From Rhodothermales bacterium (lineage in GTDB: Bacteria; Bacteroidota; Rhodothermia; Rhodothermales; JANQRZ01): a DNA stretch of 64,000 nt. Both the position numbers and the translations under genes were made by a program. Of the stretch, positions 8,697-57,977 are shown piece after piece. Position 1 is the first letter of the stretch; each line of letters starts with the position of its first letter. Location: positions 2,512 through 66,511 of the forward strand of contig JBBSMX010000004.1 of the NCBI GenBank assembly GCA_038232935.1, written 5' to 3'. The notes under the pieces were generated by a model. The model saw only the letters and a list, made by a program, of their open reading frames with translations, was not told the origin of the DNA and did not search any database.

Positions 8697-9218
8697 ATGG
8701 CTCAGAGCTTTCAACGTGAGAAACCCCCCGCCCGCGTCAACCTCTTCTTGGAGGTGTCCAAAGGCGACTCCCAGCAGAAGATCGAGCTGCCGATGCGGCT
8801 GATGGTCCTAGGCGATTACAAGGGCCGCGCGGACAGCACCCCGCTCGCCGAGCGCGAACTCATCAACCTCAACAAGGACAACTTCGAATCCGTCCTCAAG
8901 TCGATGGATGCGAAGCTCGAGTACGCCGTCCCGGACACGTTCAAGGGCGGGGATGCGGAAATGAAGGTCGACATCGACATCAACTCGATGAAGTCGTTCG
9001 ATCCGGAGGAGGTGGCCAAGCAGGTGCCGCAGCTCAACCGGATGCTGGCGATGCGGAACCTCTTGCAGGACCTCCGGAACCGCGTCGTCTCCGCCAACGA
9101 TTTCCGGAAGCAACTCGAAGGCATCGTCAAGGACGAAGCGGCCCTCGAACGGCTCGCCGCCGAACTCGACCAGTTCGTACCGAAGCCGGCCGCCGACTCC
9201 GAAGCCGACGAGGCCTAA
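8697..9218 (+). CDS. tssB: T6SS sheath small subunit TssB (VipA)
   Basis: 173 aa. PPARVNLFLEV.., ELPMRLMVLGDY.., MKSFDPEEVAKQVPQLNRMLAMRNLL are typical TssB blocks. Confidence 0.93.
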   Translation: MAQSFQREKPPARVNLFLEVSKGDSQQKIELPMRLMVLGDYKGRADSTPLAERELINLNKDNFESVLKSMDAKLEYAVPDTFKGGDAEMKVDIDINSMKSFDPEEVAKQVPQLNRMLAMRNLLQDLRNRVVSANDFRKQLEGIVKDEAALERLAAELDQFVPKPAADSEADEA

Positions 9219-26895: not shown

Positions 26896-26899
26896 CCCC

Positions 26900-27949
26900 G
26901 TGGAGTCGCCGCCACTCACCTTCGATCTCGACCGGCTCCGGCCCGGCGCGGACCTGCGCGAGGCGGACCTGCGCGCGGTCTCTCTCGCGTCGGCCGATCT
27001 CACCGGGGCGAATCTCGCGGGAATAGATCTCCGGGAGACCGAGATCGCCGGGGCGATCCTCGAAGGCATAGACTTCAAGGGGGCCGATCTCCAGGGCGCT
27101 CGGTTCACTGAATCGCTGATGAGCGGAGCGAATTTTACCGAGGCCAATCTGACGGGAGTGACGTTCGACGGGTGCCTGCTCGAAGGCGCGCTGTTTCGCA
27201 ACGCTCGGCTCGACGGAGCCACGTTGGCGTCCTGCGTGGCCGACCGCGCCGACTTTCGCGGGGCCTCCCTGCCGCGCTGCACGATCGAAGGGTCGGTTCT
27301 CGAAGAGGCGAGCCTGGCCGGGTGCGAGATGGCGGGAGCGGTCCTCAGCGGGAGTGTCTTTAATGCCGCCGATCTCACCGGGGCGAAGCTCGTCGGCGCG
27401 AACCTCGAACAGACCCTGTTGAGTGAGGCCAACCTCGCCGGGGCCGACTTCACCGACGCCGTGCTCTCCGGGGCCATCCTCGACAAAGCGAGCGCGCCCG
27501 GTGCCATCTTTCGCCGCGCGTTTCTCGTCGCCACCTTCGCCCCGCGTGCCGACCTTTCGGGGTGCGACTTCTCGGGGGCCAAGCTCTCCGTCGGCACGTT
27601 CACCCGGTCGACACTAGCGCGGGCGACCTTCCTCCACACCACGGCCGAGAGCGCGGTCTTCGAGTACGCAGACCTCCGCGGGGCGAAGCTGAGCCAGTCC
27701 TCATTCAACTTCTCCAACTTCGTCGGGGCCGAGTTCGCGGGGGCGCAGGCTGCCACGTGCAGTTTCTTCGGAGCGGATTTCTACTGGACCGTGCTCGATG
27801 CTTTCCAGCGGACGCAGTGCGATTTCGAATCGGCCCGGATGCCCGAGTCGGTCCAGCCTGCGTTCGGGCCGGGCGTCGCGCCGCCGCCGATCCGCCCCCT
27901 GCCGCTCTATCGCCAGCCCGCCTCCGCGCAACCCCGTCCGAGCCGATGA
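26900..27949 (+). CDS. Pentapeptide-repeat protein
   Basis: About 300 aa of A(D/N)LxG-type pentapeptides (ADLREADLRAVSLASADLTGANLAGIDLRETEIAGAILEGIDFKGADLQGARF...). A GTG start 4 nt after the Rhs stop is chosen. The longer ORF from 26339 overlaps Rhs and is rejected. Confidence 0.8.
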   Translation: MESPPLTFDLDRLRPGADLREADLRAVSLASADLTGANLAGIDLRETEIAGAILEGIDFKGADLQGARFTESLMSGANFTEANLTGVTFDGCLLEGALFRNARLDGATLASCVADRADFRGASLPRCTIEGSVLEEASLAGCEMAGAVLSGSVFNAADLTGAKLVGANLEQTLLSEANLAGADFTDAVLSGAILDKASAPGAIFRRAFLVATFAPRADLSGCDFSGAKLSVGTFTRSTLARATFLHTTAESAVFEYADLRGAKLSQSSFNFSNFVGAEFAGAQAATCSFFGADFYWTVLDAFQRTQCDFESARMPESVQPAFGPGVAPPPIRPLPLYRQPASAQPRPSR

Positions 27950-29013
27950 ACGTCACGAATGACACGCCGTTCGTCGACGGCCTCGCGATCGGAATGGGGC
28001 CGGACCGGAAGCCGTGCCTCGCCGTGCTGCTCAAAGCCACGTTCCGGATCCCCGACGGGGCCGATGGTGCGCCCGCGCCCGCTGCCGACGAGCAACTCCC
28101 CATCGCGGCCAGCGACGAGTTCTTCAAAGGCGACATCACCGGCAGCGTCCGACTCGAAAGCGACGTCGTCCCGTTCAAGCCCCGCGCCGACATCGTGCTC
28201 GTCGGGCGGGCGTATGCGCCAGGCGGCAAGCCGGTGCCGGCGCTCGACGTGGCGCTCCGCGTCGGGCGGGCGCAGCAGGCCATCCGCGTCTTCGGCGACC
28301 GGCGGTGGGTGTTCCCGACCCGGCTGGTGATGGTACCGACGATGTCCGATCCCGAGCCGTTCGCCGAGATGCCGCTCGTCTACGAGCGCGCCTTCGGTGG
28401 GTTCGATCACAAAGGGCGGGCGTGGTGCACGCAGAACCACATCGGCCGCGGGTTCATCGGGAAGAAGACACGCGAGTCCGTGGACGGCAAGGTGCTGCCC
28501 AACCTCGAAGACCCCCGCCGCCCGATCCGCTCGTGGGATGACCAGCCCGCGCCCGTCGGCTTCGGCTTCTACGGCCGAAGCTGGCAGCCCCGCGCGGCCT
28601 TCACCGGCCGGGCCACGCACGACCTCGACCCCGAGTTCGGCTTGCCCGCCGACTTCGACTTCGGGTTCAACAACGGGGCGCACCCCGCGCTGCAAGTCCC
28701 CAGCTACCTCGCGGGCAACGAGGAAGTCGAGCTGCGGCATCTCACGCCCGACGGCTACCGGCGCTTCCAGCTTCCCGGCCTCCGACCCGATATCGCCCTT
28801 CACGTCTACGAAGGAGCAAGCGGCGAGGCAGGATCTGACGCCCCCCCCGAACAGGCCGAGCGCCCGGTGCACCGCCACCCGCTCACGACTCACCTCGATA
28901 CCCTCGTGTTTCTTCCCGACGAAGGTGTATTCTATCAGGTGTGGCGTGGGACGTATACCCTTCCTGAGCTAAGCCTAGGCACGATTGCGGGCATCGACCT
29001 CCGCATCGCATAA
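27946..29013 (+). CDS. DUF2169-family T6SS adaptor/accessory protein
   Basis: MNVTNDTPFVDGLAIGMGPDRKPCLAVLLKATFRIPDG.. matches the typical DUF2169 N-terminus. ATGA overlap with the preceding gene. Confidence 0.8.
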   Translation: MNVTNDTPFVDGLAIGMGPDRKPCLAVLLKATFRIPDGADGAPAPAADEQLPIAASDEFFKGDITGSVRLESDVVPFKPRADIVLVGRAYAPGGKPVPALDVALRVGRAQQAIRVFGDRRWVFPTRLVMVPTMSDPEPFAEMPLVYERAFGGFDHKGRAWCTQNHIGRGFIGKKTRESVDGKVLPNLEDPRRPIRSWDDQPAPVGFGFYGRSWQPRAAFTGRATHDLDPEFGLPADFDFGFNNGAHPALQVPSYLAGNEEVELRHLTPDGYRRFQLPGLRPDIALHVYEGASGEAGSDAPPEQAERPVHRHPLTTHLDTLVFLPDEGVFYQVWRGTYTLPELSLGTIAGIDLRIA

Positions 29014-29030: not shown

Positions 29031-30857
29031 ATGAGCGATCCGCACAAAAACGTAGGCATCCGCATCACCTCAGACCCGGACACGACAGCCATTCCGCAGC
29101 CCGGCACGGGGGCCGTGAAACGCGAGGCGCGGATGCCGCTCCGCTTGCTGCTCGTCGCTGATCTCACGCCGCAACGGCGGCCGAACTGGCGGGGCGATTC
29201 GCTCCTGCGGCGGGTGGACGCGCACGGTTTCGCCGGGCTGATGGAGGAGTGGCAGCCCGCGCTCCGGCTCGACGTGCCGAACCGGCTCAGTCCGCAACCT
29301 CCGTCGCTAGAGATCGGACTTCGGTTTCGGTCCTTAAAGGACTTCGCGCCGTCCGCGATTGCTCGGCAGGTGCCGGCGCTCGCGCGACTGCTCGCGATCC
29401 GCACCGAGGTCTACGGCGTCCGCACAAAGGGGACCGACCGCGAGACCTTCCGCGACCGGCTCGGGGAGGCCGGGGTGGATGCGGCGTCGGCGGACGGGCT
29501 CTACGCCCAGCTCACCATCGAGCCGCCCAAGCCGAAGCCTGCGCCGGCCCCGCAGAGGGACGACGCGCTCGACCGGCTGATGGGGATGGTGGATTCCGGC
29601 GACGGCAGCGCCGACGAAACGAGCGGCAGCGGGGACGCGCTCGCCGAGGCGGTCTCCGACGGCGCGCGCCGCATCGCGACGTCGGCGGCCGATAAGATTC
29701 TGGAGGACTTCGACCGGAAGCTCGGCGGGCAGGTTCGGGCGATCATCGAGCACCCGGACGTGCGGCGGCTCGAAGCGGCGTGGCGCGGGCTGAAGCTGCT
29801 CGTGGACCGGCTCCCGTTCCGCGAGGGCGTCCACCTCGACGTGCTGGCCGCGCCCCGCGAGAGCCTGAGCGAGGCGCTCTATTTCCAGGTCCTCGTGCCG
29901 GAGCACGGTGCCGGAGAAGGCGACGGCCGCGACCCGCTCTCCGCCGTAATCCTCGGCTTCGCCTTCGATAACAGCCAGGCCGATATCGAACTGCTCGACG
30001 ACATCGCCGGGACGGGTGCGAGCCTGCAAGCCCCGTTCATCGCGTCCGCCGGGCCGGAGTTCTTCGGGTTCGATGCGCCGGAGAAGATCGGGCCGCTGCC
30101 GCTCGTGCCGCAGCTCGTCGCGGGGCCGGAGTACATCCACTGGAACAAGCTCCGCGAGAAGGACGAGGCAAGGTTCGCCGCGCTCGCGTTCCCGCCGTTC
30201 CTGCTCCGCGCACCCTACGGCCCGGACAACCCGTCGAAGGATTTTCCGCTCGAAGAAGCGGGGTTCCTGTGGGGCGGCGGTGCCCTCGCCGTCGCCGTCG
30301 CGATGGCCGACTCGTTCGCGGAGACGGGCTGGCCGACACACCTCGCCGGTCGGCGGATGGACGACCTGCCGATCCACGAGACCGAGCGCGGCCGAACGCC
30401 GCTCGCCGTGCTGATCCCCGAAGCCAAAGCCGCCGAACTCGCCGACGCCGGGTTCGTCGTGCTCACCGGGGAGGCGAACCGCGACCGGATACAGGTCGCC
30501 CGCGCCCCGAACATCGCGCGCGCACAAACCTTCGACGACCCGGAGAAGACGGCGCATGCGGCAGCGCACGCGACGCTCGGGTGCGGCCTCTTCGCGGCGC
30601 GGGCCGCCCACCGTATGCTGACGCTGCCTACCGAAATCGACCCCGCCGCCTCGTTGGAGGCCAAGCAGGCCGCGGTGATCGCTTCGCTGCGTGCGTTCCT
30701 CGGGGGGGACGTAGCGGCGGACGCCGTGACAGCGGAGCTGGTCCCCGAGGCCGAGATCGACGGGCACGACTTGCTGGCCGTTCGTTTGCAGCCACCGCGC
30801 CACGTGCTGGACAGCCCCGTTCACCTCGCCATCGGCCTTCCGGTCCCGCGAGCATGA
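29031..30857 (+). CDS. Single-chain TssB-TssC (VipA-VipB) fusion-like sheath paralogue
   Basis: The N-terminal ~150 aa parallel TssB at 8697 (PLRLLLVADL; LKDFAPSAIARQVPALARLLAIR). The C-terminal ~400 aa parallel TssC at 9266 (IIEHPDVRRLEAAWRGLKLLVDR; DPLSAVILGFAFDNS; ALAFPPFLLRAPYGPDNPSKDFPLEE). A low-complexity linker joins the halves. Confidence 0.7.
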   Translation: MSDPHKNVGIRITSDPDTTAIPQPGTGAVKREARMPLRLLLVADLTPQRRPNWRGDSLLRRVDAHGFAGLMEEWQPALRLDVPNRLSPQPPSLEIGLRFRSLKDFAPSAIARQVPALARLLAIRTEVYGVRTKGTDRETFRDRLGEAGVDAASADGLYAQLTIEPPKPKPAPAPQRDDALDRLMGMVDSGDGSADETSGSGDALAEAVSDGARRIATSAADKILEDFDRKLGGQVRAIIEHPDVRRLEAAWRGLKLLVDRLPFREGVHLDVLAAPRESLSEALYFQVLVPEHGAGEGDGRDPLSAVILGFAFDNSQADIELLDDIAGTGASLQAPFIASAGPEFFGFDAPEKIGPLPLVPQLVAGPEYIHWNKLREKDEARFAALAFPPFLLRAPYGPDNPSKDFPLEEAGFLWGGGALAVAVAMADSFAETGWPTHLAGRRMDDLPIHETERGRTPLAVLIPEAKAAELADAGFVVLTGEANRDRIQVARAPNIARAQTFDDPEKTAHAAAHATLGCGLFAARAAHRMLTLPTEIDPAASLEAKQAAVIASLRAFLGGDVAADAVTAELVPEAEIDGHDLLAVRLQPPRHVLDSPVHLAIGLPVPRA

Positions 30858-30903: not shown

Positions 30904-32712
30904 GTGGAGGCGCATTCCGTCTCGTGCCGCCCCATCATTCGTCCCTCCAGGGCCACTTTTTTGACCCCCCAACATCCTCCCTCTTCTCAGCCGACGGAGG
31001 CGCGGCCCACCATTCGGGTTCGCGTCGAAGGGAGTAGCGTACCCGGATTGGAACGGACATTTACGGAGCCGTTCACGATTGGCCGCGGGCTACAGGCAAC
31101 GCTGCACGTGGACTCCGGCCGCGTCAGCCGCATTCACGCTGAAGTCGTCTTCGAGGAGGGCTGGGTGCTCCGCGACGCGGGCAGCACAAACGGGGTGTAT
31201 TGTGACGGCGAGCGCATCGAATCGGTGCCGCTCGTGGGGGAGGTGGTGGTCCGGCTCGGGCGCGATGGCCCCGCCGTGCATTTCCAGGTAGCGGAAGCGG
31301 AGGGCAACTACACCCCGAGCGCCGATACGATTCCCAGCGATGCCCTGACGGGGAGCGAGCTCTCGCCGCCGGTGGATTTGCCGGGGAAAACGTCAGCGGC
31401 GAATTCCCGTGGCGATGACACCTCCGCGCGCGAGAAGCCATTCCCCTCGGAGGGCGGGACGATGGGGATACGGGGTGAGCCCCCATCACCGTCGGGCGCC
31501 GAAGGCAAGGGGAAGACGTCTGAGCGGTCGGTGAGCCAGGTCATCCGGCGCTACTTCGGCGACGATGCGGGGGAGCCTGCGGGCGAGCGGACGATGATGA
31601 TCCGCCGGGCGTATCAGGAGGTCCACACGAAACAGAAGCGGAAGTACAGCGGCATCATCGGAGGCGTAGCAGCGCTGCTAATCGCGGCGCTCGGCTTCGC
31701 CATCTGGCAACAGATGCGGGTGGAGAAGCTGACCAATACGGCCGAAGCGCTCTTTTACGAGATGAGAGAGCAGGATCTCGCAACGGCTGAGCTCCGCATG
31801 CTGGCTGAAGAGGGTGGCAATGCCGCGCTCGCCGCACAACTGGACGAACTGGAAGCCCGTCGTCGCCGTCAGGCCGAACTGTACCAGGGGTACGTTGAAG
31901 AACTGGGCATCTATCGCTCGCTCAACCCGCAGGAGAAGGAGATATACCGGGTGGCCCGCATCTTCAACGAGAGCGAGTTCACGATGCCGGCGGGTTTCGT
32001 CCGGGAGGTGAAGGGGGTGATCAGCGAATGGCAGCGCTCCGGCCGGCTCAAAAACGCCCTCCAACTGGCCGAGCGAAACGGCTACACCCCCGCCATCGTC
32101 CGGACGATGCAGAAGTATGGGCTCCCGCCCGAGTTCTTCTACCTCGCCCTGCAGGAGAGCAACTTCGACACGTGCATCAGTGGACCGGAGACACGCTGGG
32201 GGATCGCCAAAGGGATGTGGCAATTCATCCCGCCGACGGCCCAAGCCTACGGCCTCTCCACCGGCCCCCGCGTCGACCTCCGCGTGTGCGACCCGATGGA
32301 CGAGCGCCACGACTTCGCCCTCGCCACCGACGCCGCTGCCCGCTACCTCCTCTACATCTACACCCATCTGGCGCAGGCTTCCGGCCTGCTGGTCATGGCC
32401 TCGTACAACTGGGGCGAGCACCGCGTGTCCTCCAAGCTCGACGAGCTTCCCGAGACCCCCCTCGATCTCGTCCGGCAGGATTTCGAAGACGTGCCGCAGA
32501 ACCCGCAACAGCGTAGCTACTGGCGGTTCCTCAACGAGTACCGAGATCGGATGCCCGACGAGACGAAGAACTACGTCCTGCATATCTTCTCCGCCGCCGT
32601 CATCGGGCAAAACCCTCGGCTGTTCGGGTTCGACTTCGACAATCCGCTGGAGCCGTACCTCCAGGAACCGGCGTCTGACCCCTCCGCCGTGGCCCTTTCC
32701 ACCTCCCCTTGA
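30904..32712 (+). CDS. FHA domain - TM helix - soluble lytic transglycosylase (SLT) fusion protein (TagH/Fha-like)
   Basis: FHA block FTIGRGLQATLHVDSGRVSRIHAEVVFEEGWVLRDAGSTNGVYCDGERI. TM helix YSGIIGGVAALLIAALGFAIWQQ. SLT block FYLALQESNFD..GIAKGMWQFIPPTAQAYGL. Start uncertain: GTG 30904, or TTG 30961. Confidence 0.8.
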   Translation: MEAHSVSCRPIIRPSRATFLTPQHPPSSQPTEARPTIRVRVEGSSVPGLERTFTEPFTIGRGLQATLHVDSGRVSRIHAEVVFEEGWVLRDAGSTNGVYCDGERIESVPLVGEVVVRLGRDGPAVHFQVAEAEGNYTPSADTIPSDALTGSELSPPVDLPGKTSAANSRGDDTSAREKPFPSEGGTMGIRGEPPSPSGAEGKGKTSERSVSQVIRRYFGDDAGEPAGERTMMIRRAYQEVHTKQKRKYSGIIGGVAALLIAALGFAIWQQMRVEKLTNTAEALFYEMREQDLATAELRMLAEEGGNAALAAQLDELEARRRRQAELYQGYVEELGIYRSLNPQEKEIYRVARIFNESEFTMPAGFVREVKGVISEWQRSGRLKNALQLAERNGYTPAIVRTMQKYGLPPEFFYLALQESNFDTCISGPETRWGIAKGMWQFIPPTAQAYGLSTGPRVDLRVCDPMDERHDFALATDAAARYLLYIYTHLAQASGLLVMASYNWGEHRVSSKLDELPETPLDLVRQDFEDVPQNPQQRSYWRFLNEYRDRMPDETKNYVLHIFSAAVIGQNPRLFGFDFDNPLEPYLQEPASDPSAVALSTSP

Positions 32713-32723
32713 TCTGCTCGCTC

Positions 32724-33485
32724 ATGCTGTGGAAGCGCTCTGCCCGCCCGCTCACGATTCGCTTCGGCGCCAAGTCCGATGTCGGCCAAGTCCGCTCGGA
32801 GAATCAGGACGACTACGGGCGCTTCCCGGAGGTCCAGTCCACCCGCAATGGGGACCAGCTATTCGTCGTAGCCGACGGGATGGGCGGGCACGAGGACGGC
32901 GGCCGGGCTAGCCGGGTCGCCGTCGAAGCCGTGGGGGGCACGTACTTCACGCATCCGGAGGTACCCGTGGAGGACCGGCTGCGCCGGGCGGTCAGCGAGG
33001 CGAACGCGCGGGTCTATCAGTTCGCGCAGGCCGGTACCATCCCGAAGAAGATGGGCACCACCTGCACCGCCCTCGCCCTGGTGGGGGAAGACGCCTACCT
33101 CGCGCACGTCGGTGACAGCAGGGCCTATCGGATCAATCGGGACGGGATCTCGCAGCTCTCGCGGGATCACACGCTCGTGGAGGCGCTGATGCGCGAGGGG
33201 GTGCTGACCGAGGACGAGGCCGCGCGCCATCCGCAGCGGCACGCGCTCGTCCGAGCGATCGGGATCGAACCGGAGGTGCAGGTGGACGTGCGGCGGCTCA
33301 AGACCCCGCAGTCCGGCGATGCGTTTCTGCTGTGCTCCGACGGCCTCGCCCGCGTGACCAACGTGGAGATCCGCGACATCGTTCGTTCTGAAACACCGCA
33401 GCAGGCGGCCGAAACCCTCGTCCAACTGGCGAACGACCGCGGCGGGCACGATAATGTGACGGTTCTAGTAGTAAAGGTTGAATAG
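32724..33485 (+). CDS. PP2C-family Ser/Thr phosphatase (PppA-like)
   Basis: FGAKSDVGQVRSENQDDYG, FVVADGMGGHEDG, LCSDGL, ANDRGGHDNVTVLVVKV. The ORF is open from a TTG at 32709 that overlaps the upstream stop. Confidence 0.9.
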   Translation: MLWKRSARPLTIRFGAKSDVGQVRSENQDDYGRFPEVQSTRNGDQLFVVADGMGGHEDGGRASRVAVEAVGGTYFTHPEVPVEDRLRRAVSEANARVYQFAQAGTIPKKMGTTCTALALVGEDAYLAHVGDSRAYRINRDGISQLSRDHTLVEALMREGVLTEDEAARHPQRHALVRAIGIEPEVQVDVRRLKTPQSGDAFLLCSDGLARVTNVEIRDIVRSETPQQAAETLVQLANDRGGHDNVTVLVVKVE

Positions 33486-33550
33486 GCCGAGCAAGAGATT
33501 AGCTTTGCGTATCCTAGCGTCTTGGCCCTCCGCTCTTCGAAGTACCCTTT

Positions 33551-35539
33551 ATGCCTGACACCTACATCGGCCAAGAGATCGACGGCTTCCGCATCCTGGA
33601 GGAACTCGGGCGCGGCGGCATGGGCGTGGTGTACAAGGCGGAGGACGTGGCCCTCGCGAGGCCGGTCGCGCTCAAGATGATCGCCCGCGAACTCTCCCGC
33701 GACGAGTCGTTCGTGCGGCGCTTCCGGTCCGAGGCACGCGCCCTCGCCCGCATCAACAGCTCGTATATCACGAGCATCTACGCGCTACGCCGCACCGAGG
33801 ACGGCATCTTCATCGTGATGGAGTTCATCGGGGGCGGCACGCTCGGCGACCTGATGGAACGAGGGCCGGTGAAGTGGGCGGCGATCCGGCCGGCGGTCCT
33901 CGAAATGATCTCGGCACTCGAGCACGCCCACGGCGTCGGCGTCATCCATCGCGACATCAAGCCGGGCAACATCCTTCTCACCGAGGCCGGCCACGTCAAG
34001 GTGACTGACTTCGGCCTCGCCAAGCTCCACACGGCCGACCAGGGGGTGACCGTCACACAAGGGATCGCCGGCACGCTCTACTACATGTCGCCGGAGCAGG
34101 TCAAGGGCGAGCGCAACCTCGACGGCCGCAGCGACCTCTACGCCCTCGGCATCACGATCTACGAAGCGCTCAGCGGCCGGCTGCCCTTTGAGCGAGGGGG
34201 CAGCGAGTTCTCTACGATGCGGAAGATCGTTGAGGACGAGTACCCGCCGCTCGGGCAGTTCGTGCCTGATCTCCCGCCCGGCGTTGAGGCGGCCGTCATG
34301 AAGGCGCTCGCCAAGAATCCGGACGACCGCTACGCGAACGCCGCCGCGATGTGTGCCGCCTTCGATGCGATCCCCGGCGCCGCGGCCCACGCTCCGGTCG
34401 TGGCGAACGGCGCTCCGCGGCGCGAGGCCGAGACGGTGATCGCGGGCGAGGCGTACCAGCAAGCTCCAGTGAAACCGGTGCGGGAGAAGCGTGCGCTGCC
34501 GAAGCAAGGGCTGGTGATCGGCGGCGGCGTGCTCGCGGCGGTGGTGCTCGCCGTCCTCGCGTTCCTCCTCTGGCCCGGTGCTACGACGTTGAGCGTAGCC
34601 ACCAATCCGCCTGGAGCCGTCGTCACCCTCGACGGCCAACAGCTCGGTCGGACGCCGCTCGAGTCCGTCGCGGTAAAGGGCGACGGCGGAAGGCTGCGCG
34701 TCGAACGGACGGGCTACGCCCTCGTCGACACGCTGATCTCCTTCGCCGAGGGCGGGCCGCTGAACCTCCGGTTTCCGCTCGTCGCACTCGCTTCGCCATC
34801 GGGCGAGGGCTCGGTCGCGCTGCTGAACGTTACGTCTAATCCCTCGGGCGCTACCGTTCTCATCAACGGCGAGCGTGTGGGGCAGACGCCGTACACCCAC
34901 CGCGATAGCACCGCCCGCCCGCTCGCCGTACGCATCGAGCGCCGGGGCTATCAGCCGTGGAGCCAGACGGGCGTCGCACTCGATCCTGGCACGCCGACAG
35001 AGATCCGGGCCGACCTCGAACGAGCGGATGCGCCGACGACCCCGGCCGACACACGGCCCGTCGACACGCGGCCGACTGACACGGGGCCGCCGGACACCGG
35101 ACCGGCCCAGCAGGGCACTCTCACCGTCAGCGCGAATCCCGGCGGGACCGTGACCGTTGCGGGCCAGAGCCGGACGGATAGTGGGACGTTCAGCGTGCCC
35201 GCCGGCTCTACACGCATTCGTTGCCAGAACCCACTATACGGCACCTTCGAAGGGACAGTCAACGTGCGCGGCGGGCAGACGGCGACGGCGACATGCTATT
35301 TCACAGCCACCGTCAACGTCAACGTCACCACCGACGAGGGACCCACGTGGGGGTCCGTCTGGGTCGACGGACGCAACGCGGGGGAGACGCCGGCCAGCCT
35401 GACGCTCGGCCCCGGCACCCACACCGTCGAGGTCCGACGAGCAGGCTATCAGACACTCGATCCGTCTCGAACCATCACCATCGCGGCCGGACTGCAGCCG
35501 AAGACCGAGCGCCTGGTATTTCAGATGAGGAAGGAGTGA
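33551..35539 (+). CDS. Ser/Thr protein kinase (PpkA-like) with TM helix and PEGA-type extracytoplasmic repeats
   Basis: Hanks kinase motifs GRGGMGVVYKA, HRDIKPGNILL, DFGLAK. TM helix GLVIGGGVLAAVVLAVLAFLLW. Three PEGA-like modules (VATNPPGAVVTLDGQQLGRTP, VTSNPSGATVLINGERVGQTP, VWVDGRNAGETP). Confidence 0.9.
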   Translation: MPDTYIGQEIDGFRILEELGRGGMGVVYKAEDVALARPVALKMIARELSRDESFVRRFRSEARALARINSSYITSIYALRRTEDGIFIVMEFIGGGTLGDLMERGPVKWAAIRPAVLEMISALEHAHGVGVIHRDIKPGNILLTEAGHVKVTDFGLAKLHTADQGVTVTQGIAGTLYYMSPEQVKGERNLDGRSDLYALGITIYEALSGRLPFERGGSEFSTMRKIVEDEYPPLGQFVPDLPPGVEAAVMKALAKNPDDRYANAAAMCAAFDAIPGAAAHAPVVANGAPRREAETVIAGEAYQQAPVKPVREKRALPKQGLVIGGGVLAAVVLAVLAFLLWPGATTLSVATNPPGAVVTLDGQQLGRTPLESVAVKGDGGRLRVERTGYALVDTLISFAEGGPLNLRFPLVALASPSGEGSVALLNVTSNPSGATVLINGERVGQTPYTHRDSTARPLAVRIERRGYQPWSQTGVALDPGTPTEIRADLERADAPTTPADTRPVDTRPTDTGPPDTGPAQQGTLTVSANPGGTVTVAGQSRTDSGTFSVPAGSTRIRCQNPLYGTFEGTVNVRGGQTATATCYFTATVNVNVTTDEGPTWGSVWVDGRNAGETPASLTLGPGTHTVEVRRAGYQTLDPSRTITIAAGLQPKTERLVFQMRKE

Positions 35540-35621
35540 CGCGAGTCCTCCTTCGTACTTACATTGGGGGGCTTCCCTCCCTATATCTACTAAGAACAGA
35601 AAGCTAAAGAGGTGACCAGTG

Positions 35622-36665
35622 ATGCCCCCGATTCTATCCCGTTTGTTGTGTGCGGCGCTCTGCGTCGTTGCCGTTTCGTTCGCCCCCGTGCAGGCGCAGG
35701 ACGTGGCGCTACAGAAGGCTATCGAGGCCTATAGCGTCGCGGAGTACGACCAGGCCATCACCGGCTTCGCCGCCCTCGTCGAAGACGCCTCGACGGACAA
35801 GGCCGTGAAGAAGGAGGCGCTCCAGTATCTCGGCCGCGCCTACGTCGCCAAGCGGGCCTACGACGACGTGCGCTCCACCATCGACCGGCTCCTCGACCTC
35901 GAGCCGCCGCTCGTCGAGCTCGACCCGGAGGACGAGCCGCCTGCGCTCATGAAGCTCTACTACGAAGTCCGCCGCGACTACGCGGGCTACGAGGTCCAAC
36001 GGCCCGAGCCCGGTATGAAGACGCTGGCCGTGATGGACTTCACGAACACATCCGTGGACGAGAAGGAGCGCTTCGACTCGATGCAGCAGGGGTTCGCCTC
36101 GATGATGATCAACTACCTCGAAGGCGCGACTGGGCTGAAGGTGGTCGAGCGCGAGCGCATCCAGTGGCTCCTCGACGAGCTGGAGCTTCAGCGCGACGGG
36201 GGCCTCGTAGACCAAGCCTCGGCCGTGCGTACGGGCAAGCTCCTCGGCGCGAACGCCGTCCTCTTCGGTGCCTTCACCGTGCATGGGAACCAGATGTGGA
36301 TCTCGGCCCGCCTCGTGAAAGTGGAGACCGGCGAGATCCTGCTGGCCGAGCAGATCTTCGGGAAGAAAGACGAATTCTTCGAGCTCATCGAGAAGCTCTC
36401 CGATCAGGTCGCCGATGCGATCGGTGTGGAGCTAGCCAAAAACAACAACGACAACAACGGTGGGAGTGCGAGTGCCGGGGGAGATGGCGAATCCCACTCG
36501 CTCGACGCCGTGCTGTCGTATTCGCAGGGGCTCGGGCTCATCGAGCAGGAGAAGTATCAGGAGGCCTACGACAAGTTCATCGAGGCGCTCGAGTACGACC
36601 CGAACTACACCCGCGCTCGGCGCAAGGCCGACAGCTTGAGGCCGCAGCTGGCGGCGGCTGGCTAA
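35622..36665 (+). CDS. Secreted TPR + CsgG-like domain protein
   Basis: Signal peptide MPPILSRLLCAALCVVAVSFAPVQAQ. TPR-like N- and C-terminal regions. Central block LAVMDFTNTSVDE..LKVVERERIQWLLDELELQRDG..GKLLGANAVLFGAFT resembles CsgG-family lipoprotein domains. Confidence 0.6.
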   Translation: MPPILSRLLCAALCVVAVSFAPVQAQDVALQKAIEAYSVAEYDQAITGFAALVEDASTDKAVKKEALQYLGRAYVAKRAYDDVRSTIDRLLDLEPPLVELDPEDEPPALMKLYYEVRRDYAGYEVQRPEPGMKTLAVMDFTNTSVDEKERFDSMQQGFASMMINYLEGATGLKVVERERIQWLLDELELQRDGGLVDQASAVRTGKLLGANAVLFGAFTVHGNQMWISARLVKVETGEILLAEQIFGKKDEFFELIEKLSDQVADAIGVELAKNNNDNNGGSASAGGDGESHSLDAVLSYSQGLGLIEQEKYQEAYDKFIEALEYDPNYTRARRKADSLRPQLAAAG

Positions 36666-36732
36666 CCTGCGCAAACCGCTGTCGTACTCTCTGGCTTGGG
36701 ACCATGTCCCCCTCTCCGTCACCCCTCCCTTT

Positions 36733-38034
36733 ATGTTTCGCGGACTCGCTCTTCTCTCCCTGCTGACGCTCGGGCTGCTGGCCGCCTGTGCGCCAACGAA
36801 CGAGATCGGCACCGTAGCTCCGGAGAAGCTGGGCCGCGCCATCGACCGCGCCCGTGCCGACCTCGTCCGAAGGCCGAACGAGGCGAGCGCGCTCCGCGAC
36901 CTCGGTGCCCTCCTCTCGCAGGACGAGCGGTTCGACGAGGCGGCCCCGTACCTCCGGCAGGCCTACGTCGAAGATCCATCCGGTGCGAAGACGCTCTACT
37001 ACCTCGGCCTGCTCAACGAGAAGGAAGGCAGCCCCGACGAGGCCTTAAAGTTCTACGGACGGTTCGCGGATGTCTCGGTGCGCTCCCCCTTCCGGCCTCT
37101 GTTGAAGGGGCGCTACGAGTCGCTCGTTCGGGAGCGGATCCAGCAGGAAATGGGGGCGCTCGCGGCGCGGGAGGACACGCTCGCGACGGCGGAGGACATG
37201 CCTCCGACGGTCGCTGTGTTTCCATTCGCGTACCGCGGGAGCGACCCCCGCTTCGCTCCGCTCGGACGAGGGCTGGGGGAGATGGTGCAGGCCGACCTCG
37301 CCGGTATCGGCGGGCTTCAGGTGGTGGAACGGCTCCGTCTCCAGTCGCTGCTCGACGAGCTCTCGCTGTCGCAATCCGAGGCGTTCGATCCGTCCACCAC
37401 GCCGCGCGTGGGGCGTCTGCTCCGCGCAGGCCGCGCTGTAGGCGGCTCTTTCGACGTGGACAACCGCGACCTCCGCATCGACGCCGCGCTGTGGAACTGG
37501 GAGGACCAGCCGTCGCCGAACTTACAGACCCGCTCGGATAACCTCGATAAGCTCTTCCAACTGAAGCGAGAGGTCGTGTTAGGGCTTGTAGAGCAGTTGG
37601 GCGTCCCCCTCACCGCCGAGGAGCGAGCCATGCTCGACGAGGTGCCGACGCGCAATCTGCAGGCGTTCATCATCTACTCGCGAGGGCTAGAGCAGGAGGA
37701 CGCCGGCAACTTCCCTGATGCCGCCGGCCTTTACCGCGAAGCGGCGAAGCTGGACCCGACGTTCGAGCGCGCCGCCGCCGGGGCCGAGCGGGCAGCGGAG
37801 GTCGACCATGCCGGGGGATCGCTCGAGCACGGCCTCGCCGCCGCTCTTGCGCTCGAAGACCTCGGGGGGATTAACCTCGTCGCCAACCGGCTCAGCAAGC
37901 TCAACGATAGCATTGGGGCGACTTTTCTTCCAGGGGCGGGGGGCGACCGTGACAGCCCTGCGGGGGAAGCCGCAGCCGCGGACGGCATCTTCGACTCCCT
38001 TCCTGATCCCCCCGACCCGCCGGGTGGCAACTGA
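36733..38034 (+). CDS. Lipoprotein with TPR + CsgG-like domain (paralogue of the preceding gene)
   Basis: Lipobox LLAAC. TPR-like region. VAVFPFAYRGSDPRF..LQVVERLRLQSLLDELSLSQS..GRLLRAGRAVGGSF parallels the preceding protein. Confidence 0.6.
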   Translation: MFRGLALLSLLTLGLLAACAPTNEIGTVAPEKLGRAIDRARADLVRRPNEASALRDLGALLSQDERFDEAAPYLRQAYVEDPSGAKTLYYLGLLNEKEGSPDEALKFYGRFADVSVRSPFRPLLKGRYESLVRERIQQEMGALAAREDTLATAEDMPPTVAVFPFAYRGSDPRFAPLGRGLGEMVQADLAGIGGLQVVERLRLQSLLDELSLSQSEAFDPSTTPRVGRLLRAGRAVGGSFDVDNRDLRIDAALWNWEDQPSPNLQTRSDNLDKLFQLKREVVLGLVEQLGVPLTAEERAMLDEVPTRNLQAFIIYSRGLEQEDAGNFPDAAGLYREAAKLDPTFERAAAGAERAAEVDHAGGSLEHGLAAALALEDLGGINLVANRLSKLNDSIGATFLPGAGGDRDSPAGEAAAADGIFDSLPDPPDPPGGN

Positions 38035-38063
38035 TCCCAACGTTTTAATATGCGTGCATTGAT

Positions 38064-39746
38064 ATGAACAGGCTTTGGACTGGACGGCTCACAGCGTTTC
38101 TCCTCGTGCTCTCACTGGGCTTCGGGCCGGGCGTGCGCGCACAGGACTTCGAGGTGGAGACGGGCGGGGTGCCGGTGCCCGGTCAGTCGCTGAGCGCTAC
38201 GGTGACCGTGTTCGCGAACAACCCCAGCAACGGCACGCTCTTTTACCGCCCCACCGGGACGAGGGAGTACGCTTCCTTGACCCCCCAGCAGAACAGCAAC
38301 GTGTTCACCGTGGAGATCCCGGCCGGAGCAGTGACGGAACGTGGGCTCGATGTCTACGGCACGTACTTCGACGATGGAGAGCTGCGGACCTACCCCATCG
38401 AGAACCCGGAGGAGTTCCCGTACCGCCTCCCTGTGTATCTCGGCTCGTATCCCGTTCCCGTCGAGTTAGCGCCGCGCCAGTACCGGATGGTTTCGGTCGC
38501 GGCCGACCTCGGCGCGGGGACGGCGGCGGGCGAGCTCACGGACGACTTCGGCATGCCGAACATCGCGCGGTGGCGAGCGGCCCGGTGGAACCCCGCACGC
38601 AGCCAGTACGAGGAACTGCCGGACATCGCAAGCTCGCTTACGGAGGGCACGGCTTTCTGGCTGATCACAGCAGCCGGGGGCGGGTTCGACATCGACGCGG
38701 CGACCTCCACCAACCCCGACTCGCTACCGACCATCACGCTCGCGCCGGGGTTCAATCAAGTCGCTAACCCGTACGCGTTCCCCATCGCGTGGGACGACAT
38801 TTTGAATGCGTCGGAGCTCGGTGGGTCGGACATCGGGGTGCCGTTGGCATTCGACGGGGTGTCCCCGTACGTCGAGGAGACCGTACTGCAGCCGTGGACG
38901 GGCTACTTCGTGCAGAACAACACGGGGCAGGCGTTGACGCTGACGGTGCCGGACTCCGAAGCGCTGGGCGATGGAGGCCGTCCCGATCTGCCCGAGGCGA
39001 CCTACACCGTCCGTGTGAGTGCTGAGGCTGATGCCTACCGCGATACGCTGAACGTGATCGGGTTCGCGACAGGGTCCGAGATAGGGCGTGACGGGATGGA
39101 CCTCGCGGAGCCGCCGCCCATCGGCGCCTACGTCCGTGTGAGCGTGATCGAGAACGGCGAGCGCCTGATGCGGAGCCTGAGACCGGAACGCGCCGACGGC
39201 GAGCTGTGGGACGTGGAGGTGACGGCGTCGGCCGATCTGCTCGAAGGCGGGCCGCGCCGTGCCGCCGTGTCGCTGAGCGAGGAGGGCGTGCGCCCGAGCG
39301 GCTTTCAGCTTTACGTGATCGACCGAGACCGCGCGACGGCGGTACCCGTGACGGACGGGGTGTTCGAGCTCGTGCTGAGCCGGGAAGCCCCGGTGCGACG
39401 GCTCCGGCTGATCGCGGGGACGGAAGACTTCGCCCGCACCGGCAGCGAGGGCGCGCCGCTCGAGTTCACCGGGTTCGCGCTCGACGCGAGCTACCCCAAT
39501 CCGTTCGAGGACCAGGCTACGATCGGCTACCGGCTCGAAGGGCTGGGCTGGGCCACGCTGGAGGTCTTCGACCTGCTCGGCCGCCGCGTACGCGTGCTCG
39601 CCGACGGCGAGCACAGCGCCGGGCCGCACACCGCCGAGTGGGATGGCCGCGACGGGACCGGGCGGGCTGTCGCCAACGGCATCTACCTAGTCCGGCTCCG
39701 CGCCGGTGATGCCTCGGCGACGCGCCGGGCCACCGTGCTTCGCTAA
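38064..39746 (+). CDS. Secreted protein of unknown function with T9SS type-A C-terminal sorting domain
   Basis: Signal peptide ..LVLSLGFGPGVRAQ. C-terminus YPNPFEDQATIGYRLEGLGWATLEVFDLLGRRVRVLADGEHSAGPHTAEWDGRDGTGRAVANGIYLVRLRAGDASATRRATVLR. Confidence 0.75.
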   Translation: MNRLWTGRLTAFLLVLSLGFGPGVRAQDFEVETGGVPVPGQSLSATVTVFANNPSNGTLFYRPTGTREYASLTPQQNSNVFTVEIPAGAVTERGLDVYGTYFDDGELRTYPIENPEEFPYRLPVYLGSYPVPVELAPRQYRMVSVAADLGAGTAAGELTDDFGMPNIARWRAARWNPARSQYEELPDIASSLTEGTAFWLITAAGGGFDIDAATSTNPDSLPTITLAPGFNQVANPYAFPIAWDDILNASELGGSDIGVPLAFDGVSPYVEETVLQPWTGYFVQNNTGQALTLTVPDSEALGDGGRPDLPEATYTVRVSAEADAYRDTLNVIGFATGSEIGRDGMDLAEPPPIGAYVRVSVIENGERLMRSLRPERADGELWDVEVTASADLLEGGPRRAAVSLSEEGVRPSGFQLYVIDRDRATAVPVTDGVFELVLSREAPVRRLRLIAGTEDFARTGSEGAPLEFTGFALDASYPNPFEDQATIGYRLEGLGWATLEVFDLLGRRVRVLADGEHSAGPHTAEWDGRDGTGRAVANGIYLVRLRAGDASATRRATVLR

Positions 39747-39754
39747 CCCCCCCG

Positions 39755-52188: not shown

Positions 52189-52259
52189 ATACGCTAGAGG
52201 CGGAGGAGGCTTGTGCGAGCGGGCCCTCTCCGCTTCTGCGTTTAGTCCGGAGGTCGGCA

Positions 52260-53564: not shown

Positions 53565-53625
53565 GTTGGGCACCGTGCGTGTGAGGCTCGCTCAACGAGC
53601 TCTCCACTTACCTGATCGAAACGCC

Positions 53626-54537: not shown

Positions 54538-54560
54538 GGGCGAGCGCGCTGCGCCCCTAC
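54534..54560. terminator. Palindromic hairpin at the convergence point of + and - strand genes
   Basis: Perfect 9-bp stem gtaggggcg / cgcccctac with a 9-nt loop. It overlaps the TAG stop of the gene ending at 54537. Confidence 0.45.
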
Positions 54561-54584
54561 GTCGTTTACGGCGGCGTGTCCCCC

Positions 54585-54745: not shown

Positions 54746-54754
54746 CCCCGGCTG

Positions 54755-56362: not shown

Positions 56363-56364
56363 CG

Positions 56365-57975: not shown

Positions 57976-57977
57976 CG

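What the first reader, a model, noticed from the sequence alone, without database searches (positions are those of the whole stretch)
29031..30857. Single-chain TssB-TssC fusion paralogue encoded in addition to the canonical tssBC pair
Seen in sequence:
- One 608-aa ORF starts 17 nt after the DUF2169 gene.
- Its first ~150 aa track the canonical TssB of this locus block by block: PLRLLLVADL vs PMRLMVLGDY, and LKDFAPSAIARQVPALARLLAIR vs MKSFDPEEVAKQVPQLNRMLAMR.
- Its last ~400 aa track TssC: IIEHPDVRRLEAAWRGLKLLVDR vs IMHHEKFQEMESSWRSLKFLVDR; DPLSAVILGFAFDNS vs DPYSAIVTNYEFKNT; ALAFPPFLLRAPYGPDNPSKDFPLEE vs ALTFPRYMLRLPYGEDTVPVKNFNYNEE.
- An Ala/Asp/Gly/Pro-rich linker replaces the N-terminal ~90 aa of TssC.
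Established knowledge: in characterised sheaths that N-terminal TssC segment carries the ClpV-binding element. T6SS sheaths are TssB/TssC heterodimers, whereas phage, pyocin and eCIS sheaths are single chains.
A diverged covalent fusion placed between the cargo adaptor and the FHA/kinase module is outside the standard 13-gene model.
Inference: it could be a sheath-nucleating or capping ring, a ClpV-insensitive protomer, or a regulator tied to the adjacent phosphorylation pathway.
Basis: partly seen in the sequence, partly recalled or inferred. Interest (0 to 1): 0.8.

Follow-up and report, generated by a model that had tools for sequence, protein, structure and literature searches.

The report
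Single-chain accessory T6SS sheath paralogue
This gene encodes a complete type VI secretion sheath building block (TssB and TssC joined in one chain), kept alongside the normal two-protein sheath and usually next to a membrane-anchored FHA/cell-wall-cutting protein; it belongs to a large, conserved and so far unstudied family that probably forms a specialised part of the sheath.

Summary
The ORF at 29031-30857 is real. It encodes 608 aa with a VipA/TssB domain, then a VipB/TssC domain, and the window also holds a canonical tssB-tssC pair. It is not an assembly artefact: more than 150 protein clusters (50% identity) share the fused architecture, including complete genomes of isolates.

The linker does not replace the TssC N-terminus. 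Profile alignment covers TssC residues 18-510, and the linker carries a strongly conserved short helix (DDALDRLMGMVD) where canonical TssC has its ClpV-binding helix. The AlphaFold2 model (pLDDT 87.6) is a full sheath protomer.

The family forms one deep clade separate from canonical TssC (300/300 bootstraps) and evolves much faster. In 12 of 18 informative loci, from several phyla, the gene lies next to an FHA-transmembrane-SLT gene, often followed by PP2C phosphatase and Ser/Thr kinase genes.

In this subclade the N-terminal arm linker is 8-10 residues longer than the invariant canonical length. Experiments on VipA show that lengthening this linker by 2 or more residues blocks contraction but not assembly.

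Best reading (about 0.4): a low-copy specialised sheath protomer, tied to the FHA-SLT/phosphorylation module and probably still recognised by ClpV. I found no published description.

The parts
29031..30857 (+). Fused TssB-TssC paralogue, 608 aa (stop codon 30855-30857)
   Evidence: ORF and translation. Pfam VipA + VipB. NCBIfam TssB/TssC matches below the equivalog cut-offs. AF2 model pLDDT 87.6, pTM 0.84. Foldseek to VipB/TssC chains TM 0.72-0.75 and to TssB TM 0.72.
29031..29129 (+). Disordered N-terminal arm (aa 1-33) carrying the conserved strand motif VGIRITSDPD (aa 8-17, nt 29052-29081), followed by a linker 8-10 aa longer than in canonical TssB
   Evidence: pLDDT below 50 for aa 1-32. 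Motif conserved across the Rhodothermales-type clade. Spacing 26 here against an invariant 18 in 42/42 canonical TssB. hhalign places a 10-aa insertion right after the strand.
29106..29510 (+). TssB/VipA-like domain (aa 26-160)
   Evidence: Pfam PF05591, E 1.2e-21. hhalign to 41 canonical TssB: prob 99.95, E 5.7e-37.
29511..29663 (+). Junction (aa 161-211): Pro-rich TssB C-terminal tail, conserved helix DDALDRLMGMVD (aa 177-188, nt 29559-29594), Gly/Asp-rich loop and second short helix DALAEAV
   Evidence: Family alignment and column counts. Collinear with TssC residues 18-78 in hhalign. ClpV-binding role of the canonical helix from PMC5048182.
29664..30590 (+). TssC/VipB-like main body (aa 212-520)
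   Evidence: Pfam PF05943, E 2.4e-50. phmmer to PDB VipB 5mxn_A, E 1.2e-49. E464 is the equivalent of VipB D333.
30591..30854 (+). C-terminal gp25-like sheath domain (aa 521-608) with the terminal beta-strands
   Evidence: Not found by Pfam. Aligned to TssC 408-510 by hhalign. Confidently folded: two helices and three strands, pLDDT above 87.
8697..9218 (+). Canonical TssB
   Evidence: Pfam VipA, E 2.3e-46.
9266..10801 (+). Canonical TssC, with N-terminal helix GSILDSIFQQV
   Evidence: Pfam VipB E 2.8e-119 and VipB_2 E 5.8e-42. Sequence.
14868..17708 (+). ClpV, candidate partner of the conserved linker helix
   Evidence: Pfam Clp_N + two AAA modules.
27562..29013 (+). DUF2169 adaptor gene immediately upstream (true start probably near 27990)
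   Evidence: Pfam DUF2169, E 7.9e-78, matching aa 150-462 of the ORF.
30904..32712 (+). FHA-TM-SLT protein (the public gene call starts 48 codons later, near 31048): cytoplasmic FHA domain, one transmembrane helix, periplasmic lytic transglycosylase
   Evidence: Pfam FHA + SLT. TM segment YSGIIGGVAALLIAALGFAIW read in the translation. Adjacent to the fused gene in 12 of 18 informative loci. 554-aa public gene call.
32709..35539 (+). PP2C phosphatase (32709-33485) and Ser/Thr kinase with PEGA domains (33551-35539)
   Evidence: Pfam. Syntenic in L001, L004, L007, L013, L056 and L093.
35619..40843 (+). Conserved downstream envelope module: CsgG/LpoB-like TPR protein, TPR protein (its orthologues in L001 and L004 also carry CsgG), FlgD_ig/CTD protein, and a 362-aa ORF with no Pfam match
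   Evidence: Pfam. Conserved order in Salinibacter, Rubrivirga and other loci.

Best explanation
The gene encodes an accessory, single-chain T6SS sheath protomer. It descends from an ancient tssB-tssC duplicate whose two genes fused.

Shown here:
- It keeps every structural element of a TssB/TssC protomer: the N-terminal arm strand, the TssB helices, the TssC N-terminal helix, the main body and the C-terminal strand-exchange domain.

Inferred:
- It can insert into the TssBC lattice built by the canonical genes of the same cluster, and it is used in low copy at a specialised position rather than as bulk sheath.
- The most parsimonious position is the ring next to the baseplate and membrane complex.
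- There the cytoplasmic FHA domain of the neighbouring FHA-TM-SLT protein docks it, under control of the adjacent Ser/Thr kinase and PP2C phosphatase. This would couple local peptidoglycan opening and envelope signalling to sheath nucleation or stabilisation.
- In this subclade the N-terminal arm linker is 8-10 residues longer than the canonical length, which is invariant. Lengthening this linker rewires ring connectivity and blocks contraction in engineered VipA. The ring it forms is therefore expected to be a static collar or lock, not a contracting element.
- The conserved linker helix probably still recruits ClpV, so the protomer can be removed after firing.
For: Architecture and fold:
-.
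- AF2 model pLDDT 87.6 with only the arm and junction disordered.
- Foldseek TM 0.72-0.75 to VipB/TssC over ~420-440 columns, and 0.72 to TssB.
- hhalign covers TssC 18-510 and TssB 7-164.

Real, selected family:
- More than 100 clusters at 90% identity and at least 150 at 50% identity.
- It forms one clade apart from canonical TssC, with 300/300 NJ bootstraps.
- Mean identity is 0.32 within the clade against 0.63 among canonical TssC.

Accessory position:
- It coexists with canonical tssBC in the window.
- It always sits at the edge of T6SS-i clusters, after ClpV, VgrG and cargo genes.

Coupling to FHA-TM-SLT:
- Adjacent in 12 of 18 informative loci. These include a Nitrospirae locus with reversed gene order and the sister subclade with a canonical-length linker.

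Arm linker:
- Canonical spacing is 18 in 42/42 TssB. It is 26 here, and 25-27 in 82 of 88 relatives. hhalign places a 10-aa insertion.
- VipA linker insertions of 2 or more residues abolish contraction but not assembly. Such subunits co-assemble with wild type (PMC5797969), and the long linker reconnects within the same ring (PMC5813253).

Linker helix:
- Conservation counts. Role of the canonical helix in ClpV binding (PMC5048182).

Expression hint:
- Weaker codon bias than tssC/tssB (Nc 36.5 against 30.2 and 32.0), consistent with lower expression.
Against: - There is no direct evidence of co-assembly, stoichiometry, location or phosphorylation.
- A sister subclade has the canonical 18-residue linker, so non-contractility cannot be the family's common property.
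- The VipB D333 equivalent, needed for contraction, is retained here as E464.
- FHA-SLT proteins also occur without the fused gene: 2 of 3 reciprocal look-ups. The fused gene also occurs without FHA-SLT or as an orphan (L002, L005, L027, L087, L088).
- The helix equivalence is not significant on its own (E 0.1).
- The N-terminal TSDPD motif tracks phylogeny rather than FHA adjacency; L014 has the FHA-SLT gene but lacks the motif.
- Codon bias is only a weak proxy for expression.
Confidence: 0.4

Rival explanations
1. Regulated brake. The protein is a natural dominant-negative sheath subunit. When it incorporates anywhere in the growing sheath it locks the sheath in the extended state or prevents firing. 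The kinase/phosphatase/FHA module sets how much is available, and ClpV clears it.
For: - The long N-terminal linker.
- The experimental precedent: VipA-N5 co-assembles with wild-type subunits and blocks T6SS activity in a dose-dependent way.
- Genomic linkage to the phosphorylation genes.
- The retained ClpV-type helix.
Against: - The sister subclade with a canonical linker length has the same FHA-SLT neighbour, so the shared function is not explained by the long linker.
- The cluster already encodes a dedicated post-translational repressor, TagF.
- There are no expression or phenotype data.
Confidence: 0.2
2. Soluble sheath mimic. The protein does not polymerise. Instead it presents a constitutively exposed ClpV-binding helix, and perhaps an FHA-binding arm. 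It would act as an adaptor or decoy that recruits or titrates ClpV, or the FHA protein, at the assembly site.
For: - The linker helix is the best-conserved short motif and lies in a disordered loop.
- The family evolves fast compared with bulk sheath proteins.
- Orphan copies exist away from T6SS clusters.
Against: - A mimic would not need the complete fold. Yet the C-terminal strand-exchange domain, the N-terminal arm strand and a family-specific fixed arm length are all conserved.
Confidence: 0.15
3. It is the sheath of a separate, second contractile machine, or the main sheath in some lineages, rather than an accessory of the canonical one.
For: - The Acidobacteriota locus L027 has two tandem fused genes right after tssJ-K-L-M, with no canonical tssBC in the 20 kb seen.
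- Single-chain sheaths are the rule in phages and eCIS.
Against: - In the window and in the Salinibacter-type loci there is no second set of tube, baseplate or spike genes next to it.
- Genes upstream in L003 and L014 are cargo-like, not structural.
- Only +/-10 kb around L027 could be read.
Confidence: 0.08
4. It is a decaying or functionless duplicate, or an assembly or gene-call artefact.
For: - Scores fall below the NCBIfam equivalog cut-offs.
- The family diverges fast.
Against: - The ORF is intact.
- Hundreds of full-length relatives exist across phyla, including complete isolate genomes.
- The model is confident.
- Motifs and synteny are conserved.
Confidence: 0.02

Closest known systems
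Canonical T6SS sheath heterodimer TssB/TssC (VipA/VipB; PDB 3j9g, 5mxn, 5urw)
   Same: - It has the same three-domain protomer fold and the same order of elements.
- These elements are the N-terminal arm strand, the TssB helices, the TssC N-terminal helix, the TssC body and the C-terminal gp25-like domain.
- It is encoded in a T6SS-i cluster.
   Different: - It is one polypeptide instead of two.
- It forms a separate deep clade, with only 24-29% identity to the cluster's own TssB and TssC.
- A loop of about 20-25 aa in domain 3 is deleted.
- The arm linker is 8-10 aa longer.
- It scores below the NCBIfam equivalog cut-offs.
- It is encoded next to FHA-SLT rather than next to hcp and tssE.
Engineered non-contractile VipA-N2 to VipA-N7 sheath subunits (PMC5797969; PDB 5mxn)
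   Same: - It is a sheath subunit whose N-terminal linker is lengthened by more than 2 residues.
- In the engineered case, such subunits assemble and co-assemble with wild type but do not contract.
   Different: - The insertion here is natural and conserved (+8-10 aa with its own SDPD motif).
- It occurs in a paralogue that coexists with normal subunits.
- Its behaviour has not been tested.
Paralogous sheath proteins of extracellular contractile injection systems (Afp2/3/4, Pvc2/3/4), where one paralogue is restricted to baseplate-proximal layers. The layer restriction is from my own knowledge; the structures appear among the hits.
   Same: - It follows the same concept: a second, diverged sheath paralogue with a specialised place in one machine.
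- It is a single chain.
   Different: - It belongs to a different branch of the sheath superfamily (Foldseek TM 0.3-0.5).
- A paralogue of this kind has not been described for T6SS.
T6SS threonine phosphorylation pathway (PpkA/TagE, PppA/TagG, Fha1/TagH, TagF) and peptidoglycan-remodelling helpers (MltE, TagX)
   Same: - The neighbouring genes encode a Hanks-type kinase, a PP2C phosphatase, an FHA protein and TagF.
- An SLT lytic transglycosylase is part of the module.
   Different: - The FHA domain is fused through a transmembrane helix to the SLT domain.
- The kinase carries PEGA domains.
- The sensor proteins are CsgG/LpoB-like TPR proteins rather than TagQRST.
- No sheath paralogue is part of the known pathway.
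Sheath-end factors TssA, TagA/TsmA, TagB/TsmB and TagJ (review PMC13584744)
   Same: - These are accessory factors that stabilise extended sheaths, form collars or clamp sheath ends. That is the kind of role proposed here.
   Different: - They are unrelated folds, and none is a sheath homologue.
- The cluster here has a long TssA (ImpA_N + VasJ). No TagA, TagB or TagJ was recognised among the genes scanned.

Membership tests
TssB / VipA (PF05591, TIGR03358) | Sequence match to the family profile above the curated threshold | tested here: inconclusive
   The Pfam domain threshold is met (77.5 bits against 24). The NCBIfam equivalog cut-off is not met (74.9 against 97.25). hhalign to 41 canonical TssB gives prob 99.95. 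It is a homologous domain, not an equivalog.
TssC / VipB (PF05943 + PF18945, TIGR03355) | Sequence match to both TssC domains above curated thresholds | tested here: inconclusive
   PF05943 is met (171.7 bits against 27). PF18945 is not detected. TIGR03355 scores 184.7 against a cut-off of 271.5. hhalign covers TssC 18-510 at E 6e-88, and the C-terminal domain is folded in the model.
Canonical T6SS sheath protomer | Two separate polypeptides (TssB and TssC) encoded by adjacent genes | tested here: not met
   A single 608-aa ORF with no stop or frameshift. The architecture is shared by at least 150 cluster representatives.
Canonical T6SS sheath protomer | Three-domain sheath fold with a C-terminal strand-exchange domain | tested here: met
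   AF2 pLDDT 87.6. Foldseek TM 0.72-0.75 to VipB/TssC chains over ~420-440 columns, and 0.72 to TssB.
Canonical T6SS sheath protomer | Fixed length of the TssB N-terminal linker (18 residues from the RVN strand to the LP core strand), needed for contraction | tested here: not met
   Spacing is 18 in 42/42 canonical TssB and in the window's own TssB, and 26 in this protein. hhalign places a 10-aa insertion. Functional relevance comes from PMC5797969.
Canonical T6SS sheath protomer | Acidic residue equivalent to VipB D333, required for contraction | tested here: met
   E464 aligns to D333. Across the fused family it is D/E in only 34 of 56 sequences, against 14 of 14 canonical.
Canonical T6SS sheath protomer | N-terminal TssC helix that binds the ClpV N-domain | tested here: inconclusive
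   A conserved helix at aa 177-188 is collinear with TssC 18-30. The isolated-segment alignment picks the same helix, but only at E 0.1. Binding cannot be tested with these tools.
Canonical T6SS sheath protomer | Polymerises around Hcp into a contractile six-start helix | not testable with these tools
   Needs purification with EM, or live imaging.
T6SS threonine phosphorylation pathway (as substrate or FHA ligand) | Phosphothreonine-dependent binding to the FHA protein, or phosphorylation by the cluster kinase | not testable with these tools
   The only evidence is gene adjacency. The conserved N-terminal T/S-S-D-P-D motif is a candidate site but tracks phylogeny.

The most novel reading that the evidence does not exclude
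T6SS sheaths in these bacteria are heterotypic. A dedicated single-chain paralogue forms a non-contracting ring that serves as collar, lock or anchor. It is docked to a membrane FHA-lytic-transglycosylase protein and switched by Ser/Thr phosphorylation. It would be a natural counterpart of the engineered VipA-N3 lock, and the first sheath-level firing checkpoint known in any T6SS.
Probability: 0.25. Interest if true: 0.85.

Novelty: new variant of a known kind. Interest (0 to 1): 0.62.

Why it matters
T6SS sheaths are described as homogeneous polymers of one TssB/TssC heterodimer. Known accessory factors that control sheath length, stability or firing are all non-sheath proteins.

A conserved second sheath protomer would add a new class of T6SS component. 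It is fused into one chain, has its own fixed arm length, and is wired to a membrane FHA/peptidoglycan-cutting protein and a kinase-phosphatase pair. It would give a handle on how firing is held back or triggered.

It also offers natural variants of the linker length that experiments have shown to decide between contractile and locked sheaths. Cultured hosts exist (Salinibacter ruber, Rhodothermaceae bacterium RA, Rubrivirga). Whether they are genetically tractable was not checked here.

Tried and rejected
1. Literature. Seven full-text searches and five papers were read. None describes a natural TssB-TssC fusion. The August 2026 review of T6SS accessory factors lists no sheath paralogue.
2. 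Isolated linker against the isolated TssC N-terminus by hhalign. It finds the expected helix, but E is 0.1 over 6 columns. The ClpV-helix equivalence therefore rests on collinearity and motif only.
3. N-terminal T/S-S-D-P-D motif as the FHA ligand. Its presence follows the clade, not FHA-SLT adjacency. L014 has the neighbour without the motif, and L002 has the motif without the neighbour. This is not usable as evidence.
4. Loss of the VipB D333 equivalent as a sign of non-contractility. It is retained here as E464.
5. Long linker as a property of the whole family. Rejected, because a sister subclade has the canonical 18-residue spacing.
6. Obligate fused/FHA-SLT pair. The reciprocal look-ups found FHA-SLT genes without the fused gene in 2 of 3 cases.
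7. Genes upstream in L003 and L014 as parts of a different apparatus. The only shared similarities are a PG_binding_1 protein, a short C-terminal segment of the preceding ORF, and (with L009) a DcrB protein, which look like cargo.
8. Giant 1100-2150 aa 'proteins' with several sheath units (P0178 and others). They look like merged gene calls.
9. Technical. The Biopython bootstrap timed out. A first numpy version produced invalid distances. It was redone with capped distances.
10. A chimeric AF2 run (ClpV-N plus the helix) was considered and not attempted.
Full report
**1. What is in the window**

The window is about 68% G+C. It carries a complete T6SS-i cluster on the + strand:
- Core genes: TssK (cut by the window start), TssL/DotU, TssM, TagF, TssA (ImpA_N + VasJ), TssB 8697-9218, TssC 9266-10801, Hcp, TssE, TssF, TssG and ClpV.
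- Cargo region: a low-GC VgrG-like gene, VgrG, Rhs, a pentapeptide-repeat gene and DUF2169.
- Then the ORF in question, 29031-30857.
- Downstream module: FHA-TM-SLT, PP2C, a Ser/Thr kinase with PEGA domains, a CsgG/LpoB-like TPR protein, a TPR protein, a FlgD_ig/CTD protein and a 362-aa ORF with no Pfam match.

The closest relatives come from Rhodothermales, Salinibacter and Rubrivirga.

**2. The observation**

The ORF is exactly as described: ATG at 29031, TGA at 30855-30857, 17 nt after the DUF2169 stop, 608 aa.

- Pfam finds VipA at aa 26-160 (E 1.2e-21) and VipB at aa 222-487 (E 2.4e-50).
- NCBIfam finds the TssB and TssC equivalog models, both below their curated cut-offs.
- Against the window's own sheath proteins it is 24% identical to TssB (E 2e-14) and 29% identical to TssC (E 1e-52).
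- phmmer finds every solved T6SS sheath structure.

The similarity is therefore far beyond chance, and the gene is additional to a canonical pair.

**3. Not an artefact**

- The protein search returned more than 100 clusters at 90% identity with the same VipA+VipB architecture at about 600-690 aa. These include Salinibacter ruber and other complete genomes.
- A profile search of 1.84 billion representatives listed 150 best hits. Almost all were single full-length matches of about 600 aa, and scores were still near 385 bits at rank 150.
- Fused ORFs also occur in Nitrospirae and Acidobacteriota MAGs.

**4.

An AlphaFold2 model built on 56 family members has pLDDT 87.6 and pTM 0.84. Only aa 1-32 and 188-210 are disordered.

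Foldseek matches VipB/TssC chains with target-normalised TM 0.72-0.75 over about 420-440 columns, which includes the C-terminal domain. It matches TssB with TM 0.72. Phage, pyocin and eCIS sheaths follow at TM 0.3-0.5.

Profile-profile alignment of the fused family against canonical TssC runs from fused residue 175 to 607 and covers TssC 18-510 (prob 100, E 6e-88). The N-terminal part aligns to TssB 7-164 (prob 99.95, E 5.7e-37).

The protein is therefore essentially full-length TssB joined to almost full-length TssC. The TssB C-terminal tail (…LTIEPPKP, compare canonical …LDQFVPKP) runs straight into the TssC N-terminal region. Only a loop of about 20-25 aa is missing.

The 'linker' is not a replacement of the TssC N-terminus. 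It contains the best-conserved short motif of that region, D177-D-A-L-D-R-L-M-G-M-V-D188. Across 56 sequences L180 is always aliphatic, D181 is kept in 47, M186 in 49 and V187 in 50. The motif is present even in the Nitrospirae and Acidobacteriota members.

It is collinear with the canonical helix (window TssC GSILDSIFQQV; family consensus SLLDxIL). In characterised systems that helix binds the ClpV N-domain, for example EAEC TssC2 15-29 ATDDCLEEIINNTRA (PMC5048182).

A caveat applies. Aligned in isolation, the segment finds exactly this helix, but only at E 0.1. One structural difference remains: the helix is now internal, so ClpV would have to engage a loop rather than a free N-terminus. That last point is my inference.

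**5. Evolution**

I built a neighbour-joining tree of the TssC-equivalent 404 columns. It included 29 fused sequences that group together, three further fused sequences (P0111, P0244, P0236) and 30 canonical TssC.

- All accessory fused proteins fall in one clade, separate from every canonical TssC including the window's own. The split appears in 300 of 300 bootstraps.
- Long-branch effects cannot be excluded with this simple method.
- Mean identity is 0.32 inside the fused clade, 0.63 among canonical TssC and 0.285 between the two.
- P0111, P0244 and P0236 sit inside the canonical clade. They are independent events or merged gene calls.

This is an old, fast-evolving paralogous family, not a recent local duplication.

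**6. Genomic context**

I compared the window's proteins with ORFs of related loci and used the precomputed Pfam hits. Among 18 loci with enough flanking sequence, the fused gene is directly next to an FHA-TM-SLT gene in 12: the window, L001 (S. ruber), L003, L004, L007, L009, L013 (Rubrivirga), L014 (Nitrospirae, reversed order), L056, L089, L090 and L093.

- PP2C, the PEGA kinase and the CsgG/TPR genes follow in most Rhodothermales-type loci.
- Upstream there is always variable cargo: VgrG, PAAR, Rhs, DUF2169, DcrB or PG_binding_1 proteins.
- Exceptions: orphan copies (L002, L088), a copy followed by a kinase only (L005), a copy after ClpV with nothing else (L087), a Nitrospirae copy (L046) with no FHA-SLT match in the roughly 3 kb on either side, and an Acidobacteriota locus with two tandem fused genes after tssJKLM (L027).
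- The reverse does not hold. Two of three more distant FHA-SLT homologues sit in non-T6SS contexts.

The FHA-SLT protein has a transmembrane helix between the FHA domain (aa 58-119) and the SLT domain (aa 401-513). The FHA domain therefore faces the cytoplasm, where the sheath is.

**7. A measurable structural difference**

In canonical TssB, the distance from the N-terminal arm strand (R-V/I-N) to the first core strand (LP-L-K/R) is 18 residues. This holds in all 42 TssB proteins extracted from unrelated loci, in the window's own TssB, and by my own count in VipA.

- In the fused protein the distance is 26.
- Of 88 relatives with the VG-x-x-I-T-S-D-P-D motif, 66 have 26 and 82 have 25-27.
- hhalign places a 10-residue insertion immediately after the strand.
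- A sister subclade, which also neighbours FHA-SLT, has 18.

Published experiments show that inserting 2 or more residues into this linker of VipA abolishes contraction. Assembly is unaffected, and such subunits co-assemble with wild type and poison it (PMC5797969). In VipA-N3 the long linker reconnects to a neighbour in the same ring (PMC5813253).

The residue equivalent to VipB D333, which is needed for contraction, is retained here as E464. It is relaxed across the family: D/E in 34 of 56 sequences against 14 of 14 canonical.

Codon bias is weaker than for tssC and tssB (Nc 36.5 against 30.2 and 32.0). This is a weak hint of lower expression.

**8. Interpretation**

Shown:
- A complete, conserved, single-chain sheath protomer of a distinct ancient clade.
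- It coexists with the canonical pair.
- It is usually adjacent to an FHA-TM-SLT gene.
- It carries a clade-specific fixed arm length outside the range that supports contraction in V. cholerae.

Inferred:
- It enters the TssBC lattice in low copy at a special place, most simply the ring next to the baseplate and membrane complex, where an SLT enzyme and a cytoplasmic FHA domain would sit.
- There it acts as a static collar or nucleus under kinase/phosphatase control.
- It remains a ClpV client.

I put about 0.4 on this. The rivals are a regulated dominant-negative brake (0.2), a soluble ClpV/FHA adaptor or decoy (0.15), the sheath of a separate machine (0.08) and a functionless or artefactual gene (0.02).

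**9. Comparison with what is known**

- As a fold, it is a member of the VipA/VipB sheath superfamily.
- It is not an equivalog of TssB or TssC. It fails the NCBIfam cut-offs, is a single chain, has a different arm length and forms a separate clade.
- Its closest functional analogies are the engineered VipA-N mutants and the layer-specific sheath paralogues of eCIS. The latter comparison rests on my own knowledge.
- Databases label it only as a 'T6SS contractile sheath domain-containing protein' or 'hypothetical'.
- Neither the literature searches nor a 2026 review of accessory factors mention such a component.

**10. Verdict**

I rate the finding a new variant of a known kind. It is of solid interest to T6SS specialists and can be tested in cultured hosts.

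Noticed in passing
window 30904-32712 (public gene call starts near 31048): FHA domain, one transmembrane helix and an SLT lytic transglycosylase sit in one protein. This links phosphothreonine recognition in the cytoplasm to peptidoglycan cleavage in the periplasm. It belongs to a large family (at least 120 close clusters), and some members lie outside T6SS loci (Aminicenantes L091, L092).
   Followed up: partly
window 17759-21190: A VgrG-like gene of 1143 aa has much lower G+C (0.555, GC3 0.69, Nc 49) than the rest of the cluster (about 0.68). It looks like a recently acquired spike/effector gene placed ahead of the resident VgrG.
   Followed up: no
window 26339-27949: A pentapeptide-repeat protein (8 repeats, E 1.8e-52) is encoded between Rhs and DUF2169. 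The ORF as listed overlaps the Rhs 3' end and the DUF2169 ORF, so the true starts of both genes are probably later than the longest ORFs.
   Followed up: no
window 32709-40843: A conserved envelope-signalling module follows the FHA-SLT gene: PP2C, a Ser/Thr kinase with periplasmic PEGA domains, a CsgG/LpoB-like TPR protein, a TPR protein (its orthologues in L001 and L004 also carry CsgG), a FlgD_ig/T9SS-CTD protein and a 362-aa protein with no Pfam match. The order is the same in Salinibacter, Rubrivirga and other loci. It may be an analogue of TagQRST-PpkA-PppA.
   Followed up: partly
L027 8133-9854 and 9890-11824 (Acidobacteriota MAG): Two tandem fused VipA+VipB genes lie directly after tssJ-K-L-M. 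The first is shorter and lacks the conserved linker helix. No canonical tssBC was seen within the 20 kb held.
   Followed up: partly
proteins P0111, P0244, P0236; P0178, P0197, P0201, P0250: P0111, P0244 and P0236 are further fused TssB-TssC proteins that fall inside the canonical TssC clade. They are either independent fusions or merged gene calls. The others are gene calls of 1100-2150 aa carrying two or three sheath units. P0178 also carries TPR, kinase and TssK parts, and again places a kinase next to a fused sheath unit.
   Followed up: no
window 49858-61568, both strands: A run of proteins carries T9SS C-terminal sorting domains (Por_Secre_tail), including a 1196-aa subtilase with a beta-helix region. 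This fits a Bacteroidota/Rhodothermota host.
   Followed up: no
L003 3748-4446 and L014 3502-4368: A PG_binding_1 protein is shared (36% identity) between the cargo regions upstream of the fused gene in a Rhodothermaceae genome and in a Nitrospirae MAG. A DcrB-domain gene lies immediately upstream of the fused gene in L009, L089 and L090.
   Followed up: partly
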